A stretch of 64,000 bases of DNA from the IMG/VR virus record IMGVR_UViG_3300033757_000347, one strand, 5' to 3'. This document shows, piece by piece, positions 60,347-64,000 of the stretch (position 1 is its first letter; every line of letters begins with the position of its first letter). The position numbers and the translations under genes are program-made. Source of the DNA: a virus (lineage: Duplodnaviria > Caudoviricetes). Below the pieces are notes generated by a model that saw nothing but the letters and a program-made list of their open reading frames with translations, was not told the DNA's origin and did not search any database.

Positions 60347-60682
60347 ATGACTTACGTTGAAGTACTCTGGAAAAAGGAAGGCATCCACTGGAAACGGATG
60401 AAGACTATGATGACGAAGGAATTCAAAGGATCTACCAAGATCGCCGGTTTCTTCGTAGCTCTGATCCTCACGGTAGTTCACTACGCTTACGCTGGGATGC
60501 ACACGCTCTACGAAACAGCGTTATTCATCTTCAATCGGAAAGCCTTCAGAGCGAACCTCATGAAGCTTGAAATAAGCGTGACTCCTACTCGCGAGTTTAA
60601 AGTTGATGGAAAGAACGTTGACGAAGAAGTTCAAAAAGACCGCGAAAAATACCCAATTCTTAATCGAACTCTCGTTCAATAA
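60347..60682 (+). CDS. hypothetical membrane protein
   Basis: ORF track. Confidence 0.6.
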   Translation: MTYVEVLWKKEGIHWKRMKTMMTKEFKGSTKIAGFFVALILTVVHYAYAGMHTLYETALFIFNRKAFRANLMKLEISVTPTREFKVDGKNVDEEVQKDREKYPILNRTLVQ

Positions 60683-60753
60683 GAAATAAAATAGAAACGC
60701 GCTCGCCCGCGGGAGATGGACCGATAACCTCGGTCCATTTTTGTTTGCCCAGA

Positions 60754-60785
60754 TTTTTTCCTTTCGAGAAAAAGTTGTAATTTAG
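60754..60785 (+). promoter_or_regulatory. early promoter repeat, copy 18 (upstream of the tRNA operon)
   Basis: TTTTTTCCTTTC-N12-TAATTTAG. Confidence 0.7.
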
Positions 60786-60951
60786 CTTCATCAATTATTT
60801 CAATAGAAATCAATCACTTGGAAAAAAGTTTGCAAAAAAGTTCCAAAAAAGTTGGCCAAACGTTGAAAAAAGTTGTAGAATAGTTTCACATCGACGAAAA
60901 CTTTTAAGAAGGTCGTGATAAATAAAACCGAACACTAACACAAAACAACAA

Positions 60952-61080
60952 ATGAAAAACCTACAGTTACATAAGGCGTATCGCAGTTCCCAACCAATAT
61001 CCCTCGAAGGCTTTATTGGAACATGGAATCCATCATGCGATGACGTAAGAATGGGCTCGGGTTTGCATAGGTTGAAGTGA
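60952..61080 (+). CDS. putative leader peptide (42 aa)
   Basis: MKNLQLHKAYRSSQPIS...GSGLHRLK; its 3' end holds an anti-terminator strand. Confidence 0.55.
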   Translation: MKNLQLHKAYRSSQPISLEGFIGTWNPSCDDVRMGSGLHRLK

Positions 61081-61105
61081 AGGTAATTATCACAAAGAAA
61101 CTTGG

Positions 61106-61147
61106 AAAACCCGGGCCTTCAAAAAGAAAGTCCGGGTTTTTTGTTTT
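61106..61147 (+). terminator. attenuator terminator
   Basis: AAAACCCGGGC/GTCCGGGTTTT followed by TTGTTTT. Confidence 0.75.
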
Positions 61148-61151
61148 AACA

Positions 61152-61163
61152 GTTCTTTAACAT
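61152..61163 (+). promoter_or_regulatory. boxA-like antitermination site (second copy at 61292-61303)
   Basis: GTTCTTTAACAT and GTTCTTTGACAT versus rrn boxA GCTCTTTAACA. Confidence 0.65.
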
Positions 61164-61167
61164 AAAC

Positions 61168-61283
61168 GCGCTCGTGACTGAGCGGATAAGCACCAGCCGA
61201 AATTGGTACACTGAACGGGCTTACAACCTTAACGTTCAGAAATTAAGCTGGAATCTACGGAGGTTCGAATCCTTCCGAGCGCA
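61168..61283 (+). tRNA. tRNA-like RNA with a ~49-nt anticodon loop
   Basis: GCGCTCG/CGAGCGC acceptor, GGAGG-TTCGAAT-CCTTC T arm, CCAGC/GCTGG stem. Confidence 0.7.
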
Positions 61284-61385
61284 CAGTAAAGGTTCTTTGA
61301 CATCTTGGAAAATATTGGCACAAAGCTAGGCGGTCTACCGCCCGCCTAGCACAAGCACGGGGCCGTGACGGTGACCCGTGCAAAT

Positions 61386-61458
61386 GCGGAAGTAGCTCAA
61401 TTGGTAGAGCATTAGCCTTCCAAGCTAAGGGTTGCGGGTTCAAGCCCCGTTTTCCGCT
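61386..61458 (+). tRNA. tRNA-Gly(TCC)
   Basis: Full cloverleaf; TTAGC-CTTCCAA-GCTAA; U73. Confidence 0.92.
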
Positions 61459-61471
61459 CTCGAATTAAATT

Positions 61472-61555
61472 GTTCCAGTGGCCTGAGCGGCGAAAGGTCC
61501 GGGCTGTTAACCCGACGAGGCAACTCCACCGTAGGTTCGAGTCCTACCTGGAACG
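61472..61555 (+). tRNA. tRNA with a GTT (Asn) anticodon and a long variable arm
   Basis: GTTCCAG/CTGGAAC, CGGG-CTGTTAA-CCCG, GAG-GCAA-CTC. Confidence 0.85.
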
Positions 61556-61610
61556 CACAGCTTCTCGCTTTTTCATTTGAGCTAAGATAAATAAAGATAA
61601 AAAGCATAAA

Positions 61611-62246
61611 ATGTTAAAGTGTAAAGTATGCGGAAAAGAATTTCAAACCACCCAATCTCTCGGCGGCCACGTAAGTTCGCATTTTCGTACGAAGACAGAA
61701 AAAATAACGTCAATAAAACAATGTAAATATTGCAATGGAATATTTGAAAATGGTTGGAAACTTGGAGCGCATATCATTAATTGTAAAGCTAATCCAAACA
61801 TAAAGCAAATCATCAAAAAACGAAGTCTTACTATGAAGGGGATAAAACCTTCAATTGAGACCAAGATAAAAATTAGCAATTCTTTGAAGTTAGCACATAA
61901 AGAAAATAGAGCATGGAATATAGGAAAGAGCCGTTGGAATAATGATCCTAGTTATCCAGAAACATTTTTCATGAAAGTTATTAAAAATGAATTCTTAGAC
62001 AAATCGTATGTTAGAGAATACTCGATTGGAAAATACTCTATTGATTTCGCATGGCCTCATAAGAAAATAGCCATCGAAATAGACGGACAACAACATCAGC
62101 GATTCAAAGAATACGTAGAACGCGATGCTAAAAAAGATGAATACTTAAAAAATCATGGATGGTTAGTATTACGACTAAATTGGGTAGACGTTTACAATGA
62201 TCCAAAACGATACATAAATGAAGCTAACTCTTTTGTTGGCTCATAA
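61611..62246 (+). CDS. DUF559/Vsr-like homing endonuclease with C2H2 Zn fingers and NUMOD3
   Basis: CKVC..H...H, SYPE, IDFA, IEIDG.QH, RD..KD..L...GW. Confidence 0.85.
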   Translation: MLKCKVCGKEFQTTQSLGGHVSSHFRTKTEKITSIKQCKYCNGIFENGWKLGAHIINCKANPNIKQIIKKRSLTMKGIKPSIETKIKISNSLKLAHKENRAWNIGKSRWNNDPSYPETFFMKVIKNEFLDKSYVREYSIGKYSIDFAWPHKKIAIEIDGQQHQRFKEYVERDAKKDEYLKNHGWLVLRLNWVDVYNDPKRYINEANSFVGS

Positions 62247-62254
62247 AAAATAAC

Positions 62255-62378
62255 GGGGGAAAACAAACAGACTGCTCTGTCGATTTTCTTCAGAAATGAT
62301 AGCAATGATTAGAGTTGCATCGGTAAACTTCAAACTTGAAACTTTGAAATGTTGGTTCGAATCCAGCTTCCCCCACCA
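62255..62378 (+). tRNA. atypical tRNA (8-nt anticodon loop CTTGAAAC) with a ~50-nt insert between acceptor and D arms
   Basis: GGGGGAA/TTCCCCC-A-CCA; T arm GTTGG-TTCGAAT-CCAGC. Confidence 0.72.
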
Positions 62379-62412
62379 ATAACGTTCGTACCACGGTAAA
62401 AGGTACACACTC

Positions 62413-62532
62413 GGGGAAGAAATTCAAAACGCTCTGTCGAATTTCTTCTGAAAGGATAGCAAAGATTAGAGTTGCATCGGAAACAATCAAACTGTCAATT
62501 TGATCACGTGAGTTCGAATCTCACCTTCCCCG
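62413..62532 (+). tRNA. atypical tRNA-Asp(GTC) with the same insert
   Basis: GGGGAAG/CTTCCCC-G; TCAAA-CTGTCAA-TTTGA; T arm GTGAG/CTCAC. Confidence 0.75.
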
Positions 62533-62573
62533 CATCTTCCGCACCCTCCAGGAAATCAAAAATAGAGGGAAAT

Positions 62574-62655
62574 GGGATGTTATTCCGTAGATGGTAGCGG
62601 GGCAGACTGTAAATCTGTTGTGAAAGCTCGGGTGGTTCGACTCCATCACATCCCA
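62574..62655 (+). tRNA. tRNA-Tyr(GTA)
   Basis: GGGATGT/ACATCCC-A; GCAGA-CTGTAAA-TCTGT; long variable region. Confidence 0.88.
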
Positions 62656-62708
62656 CGTAGTTTACAGAGGTTTTGGTAAACAGACCGCATATAAATAAAA
62701 ATAAAGCA

Positions 62709-63176
62709 ATGCGGCTAAACCAAGAAATCGTAGACAAAATCAATGAAAATGCCAAGAACGTTAGCTCTGTTTTGGAACTTTCAGAAGTAACTGGAATCAG
62801 TAGAGTAACCCTAACCAAATATTGCAATTTGTTAGGAATACAAATTGAAGTCAAGTTACGAAAAATGAAAAGAACCGGAGGAGTAGCATTCAAATTGCTA
62901 GACATTCTCGAAGGAAAACATCCAGAATATCCGACATCGAAATTAAAAAGACGATTGATACTGGAAGGTTACAAAGAGGATCGATGCGAAGAATGTGGAA
63001 CTCCAGCAGAATGGAACGGTCGACCTTTATCATTACAAGTCGATCACATTGACGGAAATAACCGAAATCACAGACTTCAAAATCTGAGAATTTTGTGTCC
63101 AAACTGTCATTCACAAACGCATACGTTCGGAGCAAAAAACATTGTAAATAAGAAATCAAGCATAGTAAGGTCATAG
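62709..63176 (+). CDS. HNH homing endonuclease
   Basis: CEECG...LQVDHIDGN...NLRILCPNCHS. Confidence 0.9.
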   Translation: MRLNQEIVDKINENAKNVSSVLELSEVTGISRVTLTKYCNLLGIQIEVKLRKMKRTGGVAFKLLDILEGKHPEYPTSKLKRRLILEGYKEDRCEECGTPAEWNGRPLSLQVDHIDGNNRNHRLQNLRILCPNCHSQTHTFGAKNIVNKKSSIVRS

Positions 63177-63277
63177 AGTTACTTCGATCACGAGTTCGAA
63201 TCTCGTACTGCGAAAGCGGTTAGGCAAGCGGTTAAGCCGTCAATCTGTAAAATTGACAACAACAAATACCTCTATCC
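63169..63277 (+). ncRNA. circularly permuted tRNA-like / YrlA-like (Y) RNA
   Basis: Order: T arm, GAAA-capped acceptor, D arm, anticodon-like arm; closed by ATAGAG/CTCTAT. Confidence 0.72.
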
Positions 63278-63299
63278 AATGTTCTTGTTTGAAACTTAT

Positions 63300-63369
63300 G
63301 GGCCGAATGCGACGGTTGGTGCGCGCCCCGTCCCACTGGTTATTGAGGGTTCGAATCCCTCTCGGTCCT
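63300..63369 (+). tRNA. degenerate tRNA-like element (anticodon arm unpaired)
   Basis: GGGCCGA/TCGGTCC, T arm GAGGG-TTCGAAT-CCCTC, GCG/CGC D stem. Confidence 0.55.
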
Positions 63370-63624
63370 CGGATTTCCAGAAAAATACTCTTCGTATTCC
63401 CACATTTCGTAATCGCGACAAGACTTACAACGACGTAGTGGGAGATCGTTGAACACCAACGGTCTGGTATCTAATCTGACGAAATTGCCTTTCTCGTCAA
63501 TGATGCAGTCGCAGTGGTCGCAGTGGTACAAGTTCATAGCAGTATTTATCGAAAATACTTCACTTCAATTATTTAACATCACCACTTTAGAGTGCAATGC
63601 TCAGATAAATAAAAATAAAGTGAA

Positions 63625-64000
63625 ATGAGAATAGTTGAAGATTTTGTAAGAGAAACGCCAAGGGATATTCGTAAGCAAATGTTAAAGCTTGATGAACCTT
63701 GCCACGAAAGAGGATTAAAGTATTCGACTCAGTTAATCGCACTAGTTGCTTATCATTACGATACGACGATGCCAGTAAATGGAAACACTCTAGTCGTTTG
63801 CCACGGTTGTCATAATTCAAAGTGCAGTAATCCAAATCACATGTATTGGGGTACAAAAGCTGACAATCAACTCGATGAATACGAAAACGGAGCAATATCA
63901 ATTTACGAACGAATGCTTAATAAGTACGGCAAAGAAAAAACGTCAAGCATGATGAAAAAGAATTCATCTAAAGGCGGTAAATCGCCAAGAAAAAATAAAG
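63625..64000 (+). CDS. HNH (His-Cys-type) endonuclease, runs off the window end
   Basis: VCHGCHNSKCSNPNHMYWGTKADN; GATAAATA upstream. Confidence 0.8.
   Translation, partial: MRIVEDFVRETPRDIRKQMLKLDEPCHERGLKYSTQLIALVAYHYDTTMPVNGNTLVVCHGCHNSKCSNPNHMYWGTKADNQLDEYENGAISIYERMLNKYGKEKTSSMMKKNSSKGGKSPRKNK

What the first reader, a model, noticed from the sequence alone, without database searches (positions are those of the whole stretch)
62255..62532. Two tandem tRNAs carry the same extra domain at the acceptor/D-arm junction
Seen: both have 7-bp acceptor stems, a GTT/AAC D stem with GG, a TCAAA/TTTGA anticodon stem and a canonical T loop. The 2-nt connector (positions 8-9) is replaced by about 50 nt. 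Segments 62274-62323 and 62431-62480 (insert plus D arm) are 46/50 identical, while the acceptor and T stems differ with pairing kept and the anticodons differ (GTC with G73; 8-nt loop CTTGAAAC with A73-CCA). The insert can pair as CTGTC/GATAG, TTTC/GAAA and GCTCT/AGAGT. I know of no bacterial tRNA class with an insertion here. Inference: a new tRNA-like class, either with a non-canonical intron, a shielding or protein-binding domain, or acting as decoys for tRNA-targeting defences.
Basis: partly seen in the sequence, partly recalled or inferred. Interest (0 to 1): 0.82.

Follow-up and report, generated by a model that had tools for sequence, protein, structure and literature searches.

The report
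tRNA-ended partner RNAs of phage Ro60
Two neighbouring genes in a large T4-like phage encode tRNA-shaped RNAs whose extra 50 bases are the conserved handle found on the small RNAs that flank this phage group's Ro60 (RNA quality-control) gene, so they are most likely protein-bound tRNA look-alikes, not decoding tRNAs or tRNAs with introns.

Summary
Window 62255-62378 and 62413-62532 each have a 7-bp acceptor stem, a T arm and an anticodon-like hairpin, with about 50 extra bases after the 5' acceptor strand. ARAGORN and Rfam miss both.

The insert is not an intron-like filler. It is a bipartite, covarying module: helix CNCT/AGNG, a bulged second helix, a conserved 8x7 internal loop, and a 3-bp stem capped by a GNRA tetraloop. 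The same module, with free ends instead of the cap, builds the other small RNAs of the array, for example window 63162-63285.

In related phage contigs these RNAs lie on the same strand as a TROVE+vWA (Ro60-like) gene, often directly beside it. The motif was found in 20 of 22 Ro60 loci. A Ro60 homologue was found in 13 of 16 motif-bearing records, and in 7 of 7 near-complete ones.

A covariance model finds 31 distinct open-ended members carrying Asp, Met, Cys, Trp, Pro, Tyr, His, Glu and expanded Phe-like loops.

Best reading (about 0.7): an inside-out Y RNA, a Ro60 handle on a tRNA-ended scaffold.

This scan had already noted the same class in another genome. I found no paper describing it.

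The parts
62255..62378 (+). W1: open-acceptor tRNA-like RNA with Ro60-type module; A73 and encoded CCA; 8-nt Phe-like loop CTTGAAAC
   Evidence: Sequence; model R1 130.5 bits; ARAGORN calls a tRNA with anticodon tgaa only after in silico removal of the insert.
62255..62261 (+). W1 acceptor 5' strand GGGGGAA, pairing with 62368-62374 TTCCCCC
   Evidence: 7 of 7 Watson-Crick pairs. Ten acceptor types in 31 homologues are all complementary.
62262..62274 (+). W1 A/C-rich linker before the module. An A/C-rich run also precedes strand S2 in the free-ended relatives.
62275..62289 (+). W1 module strand S2: CTCT (helix 1), GTC (helix 2), GATTTTCT (5' side of the internal loop, holding the CGA(A)-like motif)
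   Evidence: Covariation counts; same motif in free-ended RNAs.
62290..62299 (+). W1 closure: TCA-GAAA-TGA, a 3-bp stem with a GNRA tetraloop that takes the place of the free terminal stem of sister RNAs
   Evidence: Pair 3 of this stem: AU 16, GC 11, UG 2, GU 1, UA 1, never unpaired.
62300..62328 (+). W1 module strand S1: TAGCAAT (3' side of the loop), GAT, bulged T, AGAG, then TTGCATCGGTAAAC (constant S1 extension that sits where a D arm would be)
62329..62348 (+). W1 anticodon-like hairpin TTCAAA-CTTGAAAC-TTTGAA
   Evidence: Fold. The loop equals the phage tRNA-Phe loop CTGAAAA with one extra U.
62351..62367 (+). W1 T arm GTTGG-TTCGAAT-CCAGC
   Evidence: All 5 pairs show double changes across homologues; 100% paired.
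62388..62406 (+). Spacer hairpin between W1 and W2: GTACC-ACGGTAAAA-GGTAC
   Evidence: Relatives have CCTGT-ACAGTAAAA-ACAGG and CCTAT-ACAGCAAAA-ATAGG at the same place. Read by eye, not scored.
62413..62532 (+). W2: open-acceptor tRNA-like RNA with the same module; G73; 7-nt loop CTGTCAA (GTC, Asp-like)
   Evidence: Sequence; model R1 125.6 bits; called tRNA-Asp after in silico removal of the insert.
62432..62484 (+). W2 module: CTCT-GTC-GAATTTCT / TCT-GAAA-GGA / TAGCAAA-GAT-T-AGAG-TTGCATCGGAAAC
62486..62504 (+). W2 anticodon-like hairpin ATCAAA-CTGTCAA-TTTGAT
63156..63292 (+). Sister RNA with the same module in free-ended form (S1 at 63162-63180, S2 at 63270-63285) around a circularly permuted tRNA-Tyr mimic with a sealed acceptor (ACTGC-GAAA-GCGGT)
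   Evidence: (weak YrlA match, 18 bits). Compensatory changes in L005.

Best explanation
W1 and W2 are stable non-coding RNAs of a phage Ro60/Y-RNA-like system, not decoding tRNAs.

Anatomy. Each RNA has two parts:
1. A tRNA-type scaffold: a 7-bp acceptor stem stacked on a T arm, N73-C74(-CA), and an anticodon-like hairpin.
2. A roughly 50-nt handle inserted after the 5' acceptor strand. The handle is helix 1 (CNCT/AGNG), a bulged helix 2, a conserved asymmetric internal loop (GAWTTTCT opposite TAGYAAW), and a 3-bp stem capped by GNRA.

In sister RNAs the same handle has free 5' and 3' ends and the tRNA-derived cargo is closed. In W1 and W2 the handle is capped and the acceptor is open. They are circular permutations ('inside-out' forms) of the same design.

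Inferred mechanism:
- The array transcript is cut by RNase P and the 3' end is finished like the neighbouring tRNAs.
- The handle binds the phage TROVE+vWA (Ro60-like) ring.
- The tRNA-like part then presents an acceptor end and a chosen anticodon loop to tRNA-binding factors. This tethers or gates Ro60, probably as part of the phage's answer to host attacks on tRNA or RNA.

Shown here: the structure, its conservation, and the genomic linkage to Ro60.
Inferred: binding, processing and function.
For: 1. The module is a structure of its own. In 31 distinct homologues, 97.4% of cells are paired, against about 40% when partners are slid. Fourteen of 15 pairs show changes on both sides, for example CTCT/AGAG to CTAA/TTAG and CACT/AGTG, and closure TCN/N'GA to CTG/CAG, CCG/CGG and CAT/ATG.
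2. The same S1 and S2 strands build free-ended RNAs: window 63162-63285, and four RNAs in the 214-kb relative G001 (L016), one of them with almost no cargo.
3. Linkage to Ro60:
- G001 encodes a 542-aa protein with TROVE, VWA_2 and vWA_Ro60 matches. It matches over nearly its full length (residues 38-520) two PDB entries (9l5y, 9kop) deposited as 'TROVE domain-containing protein', E 8e-9.
- That gene lies inside the same array, on the same strand.
- The S1 motif occurs in 20 of 22 loci fetched by this protein, always on its strand and never on the other.
- Conversely, 13 of 16 motif-bearing records have the protein, and 7 of 7 of those at least 90% complete.
- In phages whose Ro60 is only 37% identical, the open-acceptor RNA lies 430-600 nt upstream of the Ro60 match (L053, L054). 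In L043-L045, whose Ro60 is 70% identical, it lies about 240 nt upstream.
4. The window tail is 90% identical to and collinear with G001, where the Ro60 gene lies about 14 kb further on.
5. The 3' ends follow the same grammar as the array's ordinary tRNAs: C74 always, full CCA in about half.
6. Precedent in print:
- YrlA RNAs mimic tRNA, and M. smegmatis YrlA is cleaved by RNase P and receives CCA while bound to Rsr (PMC4201824).
- A phage Ro60 binds Y-like RNAs encoded next to it through a CGAA-bearing bulge (PMC12135203).
- A Ro60-like phage protein counters a defence system (PMC11482910).
7. The array already holds ordinary tRNA-Asp and tRNA-Phe genes, so W1 and W2 are not needed for decoding.
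Against: - No RNA, binding or processing data exist for any member.
- The Ro60 gene is not inside this window. For this genome its presence rests on synteny and on unchecked first-stage notes.
- The handle does not match the Rfam YrlA model.
- Its CGAA-like motif is not invariant (GTCGAA, GTCGAT, TCCGAC, GTCGGT). In the free-ended relatives it sits on the 3' strand, whereas published Y RNAs carry it on the 5' strand.
- Pair counts on model-fitted alignments lean towards the model.
- Removing the insert leaves something ARAGORN accepts as a tRNA, so a spliced or decoding role is not formally excluded.
Confidence: 0.7

Rival explanations
1. The insert is an intervening sequence that is cut out and the ends rejoined, giving ordinary tRNA-Asp and a Phe-like tRNA.
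For: In silico deletion of about 48-52 nt gives sequences that ARAGORN calls tRNA-Asp(gtc) and a tRNA with anticodon tgaa. W2 keeps G73 and GUC, which are Asp identity elements in E. coli (established knowledge).
Against: - The insert is the most conserved part of the genes (46 of 50 identical between W1 and W2; invariant columns).
- It covaries as its own fold.
- It exists as a free-standing RNA module beside Ro60.
- No group I intron or ribozyme family matches, even at E up to 10, and 50 nt is too short for a group I intron.
- The phages already carry ordinary tRNA-Asp and tRNA-Phe.
- I did not run a formal bulge-helix-bulge search.
Confidence: 0.05
2. They are Ro60-independent decoys or shields. 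The tRNA-like body soaks up host anticodon nucleases or other tRNA-targeting defence enzymes, and the insert only stabilises the RNA or blocks its use in translation.
For: - The cargo loops copy real anticodon loops (GUC, CAU, GCA, CCA, UGG, GUA, GUG, UUC) on one constant scaffold.
- The genes lie in a phage tRNA array. Phage tRNAs are known to counter tRNA-cleaving defences (eLife 2023, e85183, as cited in PMC11482910).
Against: The tight two-way linkage of the handle to the Ro60 gene is unexplained if Ro60 plays no part. The handle's conserved internal loop looks like a protein site, not a spacer.
Confidence: 0.12
3. They are working tRNAs that keep the extra domain: charged, used on the ribosome, and W1 reads a four-base codon.
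For: - Open 7-bp acceptor, C74 or CCA, and a standard T loop.
- The discriminator fits the anticodon in the Asp, Met, Trp and Tyr types (with established identity rules).
- ARAGORN reads W1's 8-nt loop as a 4-base anticodon.
Against: - The U8/A14 core is missing, and a 50-nt domain sits at the elbow side.
- Nearly all copies share one G-rich acceptor whatever the anticodon.
- The discriminator does not fit in the Cys, Pro and His types or in 5 of 9 Phe-like copies.
- Loops of 8-9 nt dominate one subgroup.
- Some members have lost the T loop (L043, L122, L008a).
Confidence: 0.06
4. They are decaying duplicates of tRNA genes hit by a small mobile insertion, with no function.
For: Homing-endonuclease genes are scattered through the array (ORFs 61611-62246 and 62673-63176; GIY-YIG/NUMOD3 matches in relatives). 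One copy (L004c) has a 1-nt loss in its acceptor.
Against: Compensatory changes occur in every helix. The class is retained across phages whose Ro60 proteins are only 37% identical.
Confidence: 0.03

Closest known systems
YrlA / bacterial and phage Y RNAs bound by Ro60 (Rsr): Rfam RF02553; Chen et al. 2014, PMC4201824; Thermus phage phiLo Ro60 with Yrl1/Yrl2, PMC12135203
   Same: - Small RNA genes beside a Ro60 gene and on its strand.
- A bulged or internal-loop helix with a CGA(A)-like motif, joined to a tRNA-like domain with a true T arm.
- M. smegmatis YrlA ends up with an RNase P-made 5' end and a CCA tail at its acceptor-like stem.
   Different: - Here the acceptor is open in the gene itself and the Ro60-type helix is closed by a GNRA cap, giving one piece instead of two.
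- The handle leaves the tRNA body after the acceptor 5' strand, not at the anticodon-stem position.
- A real anticodon-like hairpin is kept, and it differs between copies.
- There is no match to the YrlA model at any useful score.
tmRNA tRNA-like domain
   Same: Open acceptor stem with a CCA end and a T arm. A large non-tRNA insertion follows the 5' acceptor strand, and the D arm is reduced.
   Different: - No G3-U70 alanine mark (G3-C70 here).
- No reading frame and no pseudoknots.
- An anticodon-like arm is present.
- Only chance-level tmRNA matches (12.9 bits against a gathering score of 47).
Phage T4 stable RNAs species 1 and 2 (rnaC, rnaD) in the T4 tRNA cluster
   Same: Stable RNAs of about 120-140 nt encoded among the tRNA genes of a T4-type phage. 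rnaC ends with a T arm and an acceptor-like strand. As far as I know, their function is unknown.
   Different: T4 has no Ro60 gene, to my knowledge. Model R1 matches only the T arm of rnaC (12 bits), so there is no shared handle.
Archaeal tRNA genes with non-canonical introns
   Same: An intervening stretch at a position other than 37/38. Related inserts occur in different tRNA genes.
   Different: This is a bacteriophage setting. The insert is a conserved, covarying module shared with free-standing RNAs beside Ro60. No splicing signal was looked for formally.

Membership tests
Y RNA / YrlA (RF02553) | Encoded close to a Ro60 (TROVE) gene and on its strand | tested here: met
   Met in relatives. 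For this window itself the gene is not inside the 64 kb; it is inferred from 90% identical, collinear G001 and from unchecked first-stage notes.
Y RNA / YrlA (RF02553) | Helix with bulge or internal loop carrying the GNCGAAN0-1G / CGAA motif on the 5' strand near the RNA ends | tested here: inconclusive
   A covarying bulged helix and a conserved internal loop are present. GTCGAA is present in W2 and many copies but varies (GTCGAT in W1, TCCGAC, GTCGGT). In free-ended relatives it lies on the 3' strand.
Y RNA / YrlA (RF02553) | 5' and 3' ends form the Ro60-binding stem; the acceptor-like stem is closed by a loop | tested here: not met
   In W1 and W2 the ends are at the acceptor stem and the handle is capped by GNRA. 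The neighbour at 63156-63292 does meet this feature.
Y RNA / YrlA (RF02553) | Scores with the Rfam YrlA covariance model | tested here: not met
   No match for W1 or W2 even at E up to 10. The neighbour scores 18 bits against a gathering score of 69.
Y RNA / YrlA (RF02553) | Physically bound by Ro60 | not testable with these tools
   Needs pull-down or gel shift. The complex tool takes proteins only.
Canonical tRNA (RF00005) | 7-bp acceptor, discriminator, C74, 5-bp T stem with a TTCRANT loop directly joined to the acceptor | tested here: met
Canonical tRNA (RF00005) | Two-base connector (8-9) and a D arm with A14, G18G19, A21 | tested here: not met
   About 50 nt replace the connector. The D-like element (GTT-GCATCGG-AAC) lacks A14, overlaps helix 1, and is part of the module in all relatives.
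Canonical tRNA (RF00005) | 7-nt anticodon loop with U33 and a purine at 37 | tested here: inconclusive
   W2 meets it (CTGTCAA). W1 has 8 nt (CTTGAAAC). Nine of the first 20 homologues have 8-9-nt UUGAAA loops.
Canonical tRNA (RF00005) | Detected by ARAGORN or Rfam at standard thresholds | tested here: not met
tRNA gene with intron | Recognisable splicing signal (group I core or bulge-helix-bulge), with the insert free to vary | tested here: not met
   No intron or ribozyme family at E up to 10. The insert is the most conserved part. The bulge-helix-bulge motif was not searched formally.
tmRNA | G3-U70, tag reading frame, pseudoknots | tested here: not met
   G3-C70 in both. ARAGORN finds no tmRNA. 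Rfam tmRNA scores 12.9 bits.

The most novel reading that the evidence does not exclude
Large phages carry a modular 'anticodon display' kit. One Ro60-binding handle is wired onto interchangeable tRNA parts, in closed-acceptor and open, CCA-ended (possibly chargeable) versions. Ro60 particles could then bait, sense or neutralise host enzymes that attack particular tRNAs. The open-ended forms would reach partners that need a free acceptor end, such as synthetases, EF-Tu, the CCA enzyme, and acceptor-end or anticodon nucleases.
Probability: 0.2. Interest if true: 0.85.

Novelty: new variant of a known kind. Interest (0 to 1): 0.66.

Why it matters
What the tRNA-like domain of bacterial Y RNAs is for has been open since 2014. 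These phages offer a natural experiment. The same Ro60-type handle is joined to many different anticodon arms, in two opposite wirings, inside tRNA arrays, and next to genes linked to RNA-end repair (a cyclic-phosphate-processing receiver domain and a NUDIX protein).

If the RNAs bind Ro60, the cargo should name the cellular partners. That gives a direct route to testing whether Ro60 particles act in the conflict over tRNA between phages and bacteria. A Ro60-like protein of phage Bas63 has already been reported to counter a defence system (PMC11482910).

For annotation, these genes are missed by tRNA finders and by Rfam. They occur in at least 20 different environmental phage contigs held here.

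Tried and rejected
- A small hairpin reading of the S1 extension (UURC-WUCG-GUAA) is paired in only 83% of cells with no double changes. The GTT/AAC D-stem reading is paired in 57% on the MAFFT alignment, which is partly out of register there. Neither is settled.
- A single-sequence fold of the insert alone is no better than shuffles (z +0.3). The support comes from comparison, not from energy.
- T4 rnaC/rnaD were tested as relatives: only the T arm matches.
- GenBank phages (blastn, E 0.01) hold no copy of W2. The Ro60 protein has only distant relatives there, at most 31.5% identity, so no cultured host system is at hand.
- No own genome is held. tblastn finds no TROVE gene in the window.
- The promoter/terminator scan of 60600-64000 gives fewer sites than shuffles. 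That fits one long processed transcript but proves nothing.
- Structure prediction and complex prediction were not spent. The protein's family was clear from Pfam and PDB sequence matches, and the complex tool does not take RNA.

Full report
WHAT IS THERE

The window is part of a large T4-like phage. It encodes both topoisomerase II subunits typical of T4-type phages, and its tRNA array is interrupted by homing-endonuclease genes.

Between tRNA-Asn (61472-61556) and tRNA-Tyr (62574-62656) lie two genes that neither ARAGORN nor Rfam reports.

- W1 (62255-62378): acceptor GGGGGAA/TTCCCCC, A73-CCA, T arm GTTGG-TTCGAAT-CCAGC, and a hairpin TCAAA-CTTGAAAC-TTTGA.
- W2 (62413-62532): acceptor GGGGAAG/CTTCCCC, G73, T arm GTGAG-TTCGAAT-CTCAC, and a hairpin ATCAAA-CTGTCAA-TTTGAT.

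In both, about 50 nt separate the 5' acceptor strand from the rest, and these stretches are 46/50 identical. Cutting about 48-52 nt out in silico makes ARAGORN call W2 tRNA-Asp(gtc) and W1 a tRNA with a four-base anticodon.

THE INSERT IS A MODULE WITH ITS OWN STRUCTURE

Pattern scans of IMG/VR and JGI metagenome contigs, and a covariance model built from the first 16 copies, gave 32 matches (31 distinct) in 22 sources.

The comparison supports this fold:
- helix 1: CNCT/AGNG
- helix 2: GTC/GAT, with a bulged base next to helix 1
- an internal loop: GAWTTTCT opposite TAGYAAW
- a 3-bp stem closed by a GNRA tetraloop: TCA-GAAA-TGA in W1, TCT-GAAA-GGA in W2

On the 31 sequences, 97.4% of cells pair, against about 40% when partners are slid by 1-3 columns. 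Fourteen of 15 pairs change on both sides. The third closure pair alone reads AU 16, GC 11, UG 2, GU 1, UA 1. More distant members replace CTCT/AGAG by CTAA/TTAG or CTTA/TAAG, and TCN/N'GA by CTG/CAG, CCG/CGG or CAT/ATG. These alignments are fitted to the model, which favours the structure, but the first count on a plain MAFFT alignment points the same way.

TTTC/GAAA fails in half of the copies at one pair. CTGTC/GATAG never shows a double change and is incompatible with the helices that covary.

Acceptor stems come in ten versions, each fully complementary: GGGGGAA, GGGGAAG, GAGGGAG, GGCCGAG, GCCCAAG, GGGGGAT, GGGGAGA, GGGGATT, GGCGAGA, GGGGAGT.

THE SAME MODULE MAKES FREE-ENDED RNAS

The two strands of the module are S2 (CTCT-GTC-GAA-TTTCT) and S1 (TAGYAA-..-AGAG-TTRCWTCG). 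They recur in the opposite order, S1-cargo-S2, with a variable terminal stem in place of the GNRA cap.

- One such RNA is in the window (S1 63162-63180, S2 63270-63285). It surrounds a circularly permuted tRNA-Tyr mimic whose acceptor is sealed by a GAAA loop.
- Four more are in the 214-kb relative G001. Their cargoes include a Lys-CUU arm plus T arm, a Pro-UGG cloverleaf without acceptor, or almost nothing.

W1 and W2 are therefore the 'inside-out' version of one design: handle capped, tRNA ends open.

The sequence AGAG-TTRCWTCG belongs to S1 in all of these, including RNAs that have a separate true D arm. It has a GG and could still touch the T loop. I cannot decide this without probing data.

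LINK TO RO60

G001 encodes, inside the same array and on the same strand, a 542-aa protein with TROVE, VWA_2 and vWA_Ro60 matches. It matches over nearly its full length (residues 38-520) two PDB entries, 9l5y and 9kop, deposited as 'TROVE domain-containing protein' (E 8e-9). These may be the Thermus phage phiLo Ro60 structures of PMC12135203, but I did not check that.

- Loci fetched with this protein carry the S1 motif in 20 of 22 cases. It is always on the protein's strand, never on the other, and usually within a few hundred bases of the gene's start or end.
- In the other direction, of 16 longer records found only by the S1 motif, 13 encode a homologue. That includes all 7 records judged at least 90% complete. 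The three without are 15-26% fragments.
- In phages whose Ro60 is only 37% identical (L053, L054), the open-acceptor RNA sits 430-600 nt upstream of the Ro60 match. In L043-L045, whose Ro60 is 70% identical, it sits about 240 nt upstream.
- The window itself holds no TROVE gene. Its last 1.2 kb are 90% identical to and collinear with G001, where the gene follows about 14 kb further on. First-stage notes on the next window say the same for this genome, which I could not check.

HOW IT PROBABLY WORKS

Shown: the fold, its conservation and the linkage.

Inferred:
- The RNAs are released from the array transcript like tRNAs. They share the array's 3' grammar: C74 always, full CCA in about half.
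- The handle binds the phage Ro60 ring.
- The tRNA-like part presents an acceptor end and one anticodon-type loop.

The published parallels are close:
- YrlA RNAs mimic tRNA, and in M. smegmatis YrlA is opened by RNase P and given CCA while bound to Rsr (PMC4201824).
- The Ro60 of Thermus phage phiLo binds Y-like RNAs encoded beside its gene through a CGAA-bearing bulge, and assembles with host PNPase (PMC12135203).
- Jumbo phages were noted to carry TROVE proteins as part of RNA repair (PMC7824862).
- A Ro60-like protein of phage Bas63 counters the Ppl defence. Its authors guessed that some of the 'tRNA genes' next to it are Y RNAs (PMC11482910).

Downstream of Ro60 in G001 lie a cyclic-phosphate-processing receiver-domain protein, a NUDIX protein and an AAA ATPase. 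This fits a role in handling damaged RNA.

The cargo loops differ between copies: GUC, CAU, GCA, CCA, UGG, GUA, GUG, UUC, and a frequent 8-9-nt CUUGAAA(A/C) loop. That last loop is the phage tRNA-Phe loop with an extra U. The acceptor and T-arm scaffold stays nearly the same throughout. This argues for display of anticodon loops, not for decoding.

RIVALS

- An excised intron is unlikely. The insert is the best conserved and best structured part, and it exists on its own.
- Ro60-independent decoys remain possible but do not explain the linkage.
- A decoding role is unlikely. The tRNA core is missing, the acceptors are non-cognate and many loops are expanded. It is not excluded.
- Decay is contradicted by the compensatory changes.

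COMPARISON AND NOVELTY

The nearest family is Y RNA/YrlA. W1 and W2 fail two of its defining features (ends in the Ro60 stem; match to the Rfam model), so I do not file them as YrlA members. They most likely work like a Y RNA.

In topology they also recall the tRNA-like domain of tmRNA, and in genomic setting the T4 stable RNAs C and D. Neither is related by sequence model.

I found no paper that describes tRNA-ended Ro60-handle RNAs. The same class was already noted by this scan in another genome (e1-5707805, e1-5707816), and the family in this genome (e1-5824608). I reached the same reading by my own tests. I add the census (31 distinct members), the two-way Ro60 association, the corrected secondary structure, and the point that the D-like element belongs to the module.

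No copy exists in GenBank phages, so every member so far is from uncultured phages.

VERDICT

- Observation: confirmed in outline, corrected in detail.
- Interpretation: partly supported (protein-binding domain).
- Novelty: a new wiring of a known kind of ribonucleoprotein RNA.

Noticed in passing
window 63156-63292: Free-ended Y-like RNA whose cargo is a circularly permuted tRNA-Tyr mimic: T arm, acceptor sealed by ACTGC-GAAA-GCGGT, D arm, GTA hairpin. L005 has compensatory changes (ACGGC...GTCGT; D stem GGC/GCC to GAC/GTC). Weak Rfam YrlA match, 18 bits.
   Followed up: partly
window 63300-63370: Another uncalled tRNA-like gene: acceptor GGGCCGA/TCGGTCC, T arm GAGGG-TTCGAAT-CCCTC, but only a 13-nt mini-hairpin (CCCGT-CCC-ACTGG) where the anticodon arm should be. 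Conserved in L005 with compensatory acceptor changes (GGGCTGA/TCAGTCC). It overlaps a minus-strand ORF at 63340-63537.
   Followed up: no
window 61168-61283: tRNA-like gene (acceptor GCGCTCG/CGAGCGC, good T arm) with about 49 nt inside the anticodon loop, between CCAGC and GCTGG. Not called by ARAGORN. Possible intron or another mimic.
   Followed up: no
window 62388-62406: Spacer hairpin GTACC-ACGGTAAAA-GGTAC between W1 and W2. Relatives keep the 9-nt loop ACRGYAAAA on different stems (CCTGT/ACAGG, CCTAT/ATAGG). Possibly a processing signal or a further small element.
   Followed up: partly
L026 18424-18497 (relative G001): A tRNA gene with anticodon CTA (an amber suppressor; ARAGORN labels it Pyl), about 7 kb downstream of the Ro60 gene.
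   Followed up: no
L026 13611-15831 (relative G001): Downstream of Ro60: a cyclic-phosphate-processing receiver-domain protein (PF20274, E 2e-18), a NUDIX protein and an AAA ATPase. This suggests an RNA-end repair or nucleotide-signal context.
   Followed up: partly
L005 2118-2195 and L001 12626-12705: The phages' 'ordinary' tRNA-Asp genes are themselves 78-80 nt long, with an unusually long D region (GGGGCTGCTAGGTGTGGCTGTC).
   Followed up: no
window 61611-62246 and 62673-63176: ORFs that interrupt the tRNA/Y-like array. The second has the cysteine and histidine pattern of HNH endonucleases and matches HNH genes of T4-like phages by blastn. W1 starts 9 nt after the stop codon of the first.
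   Followed up: partly
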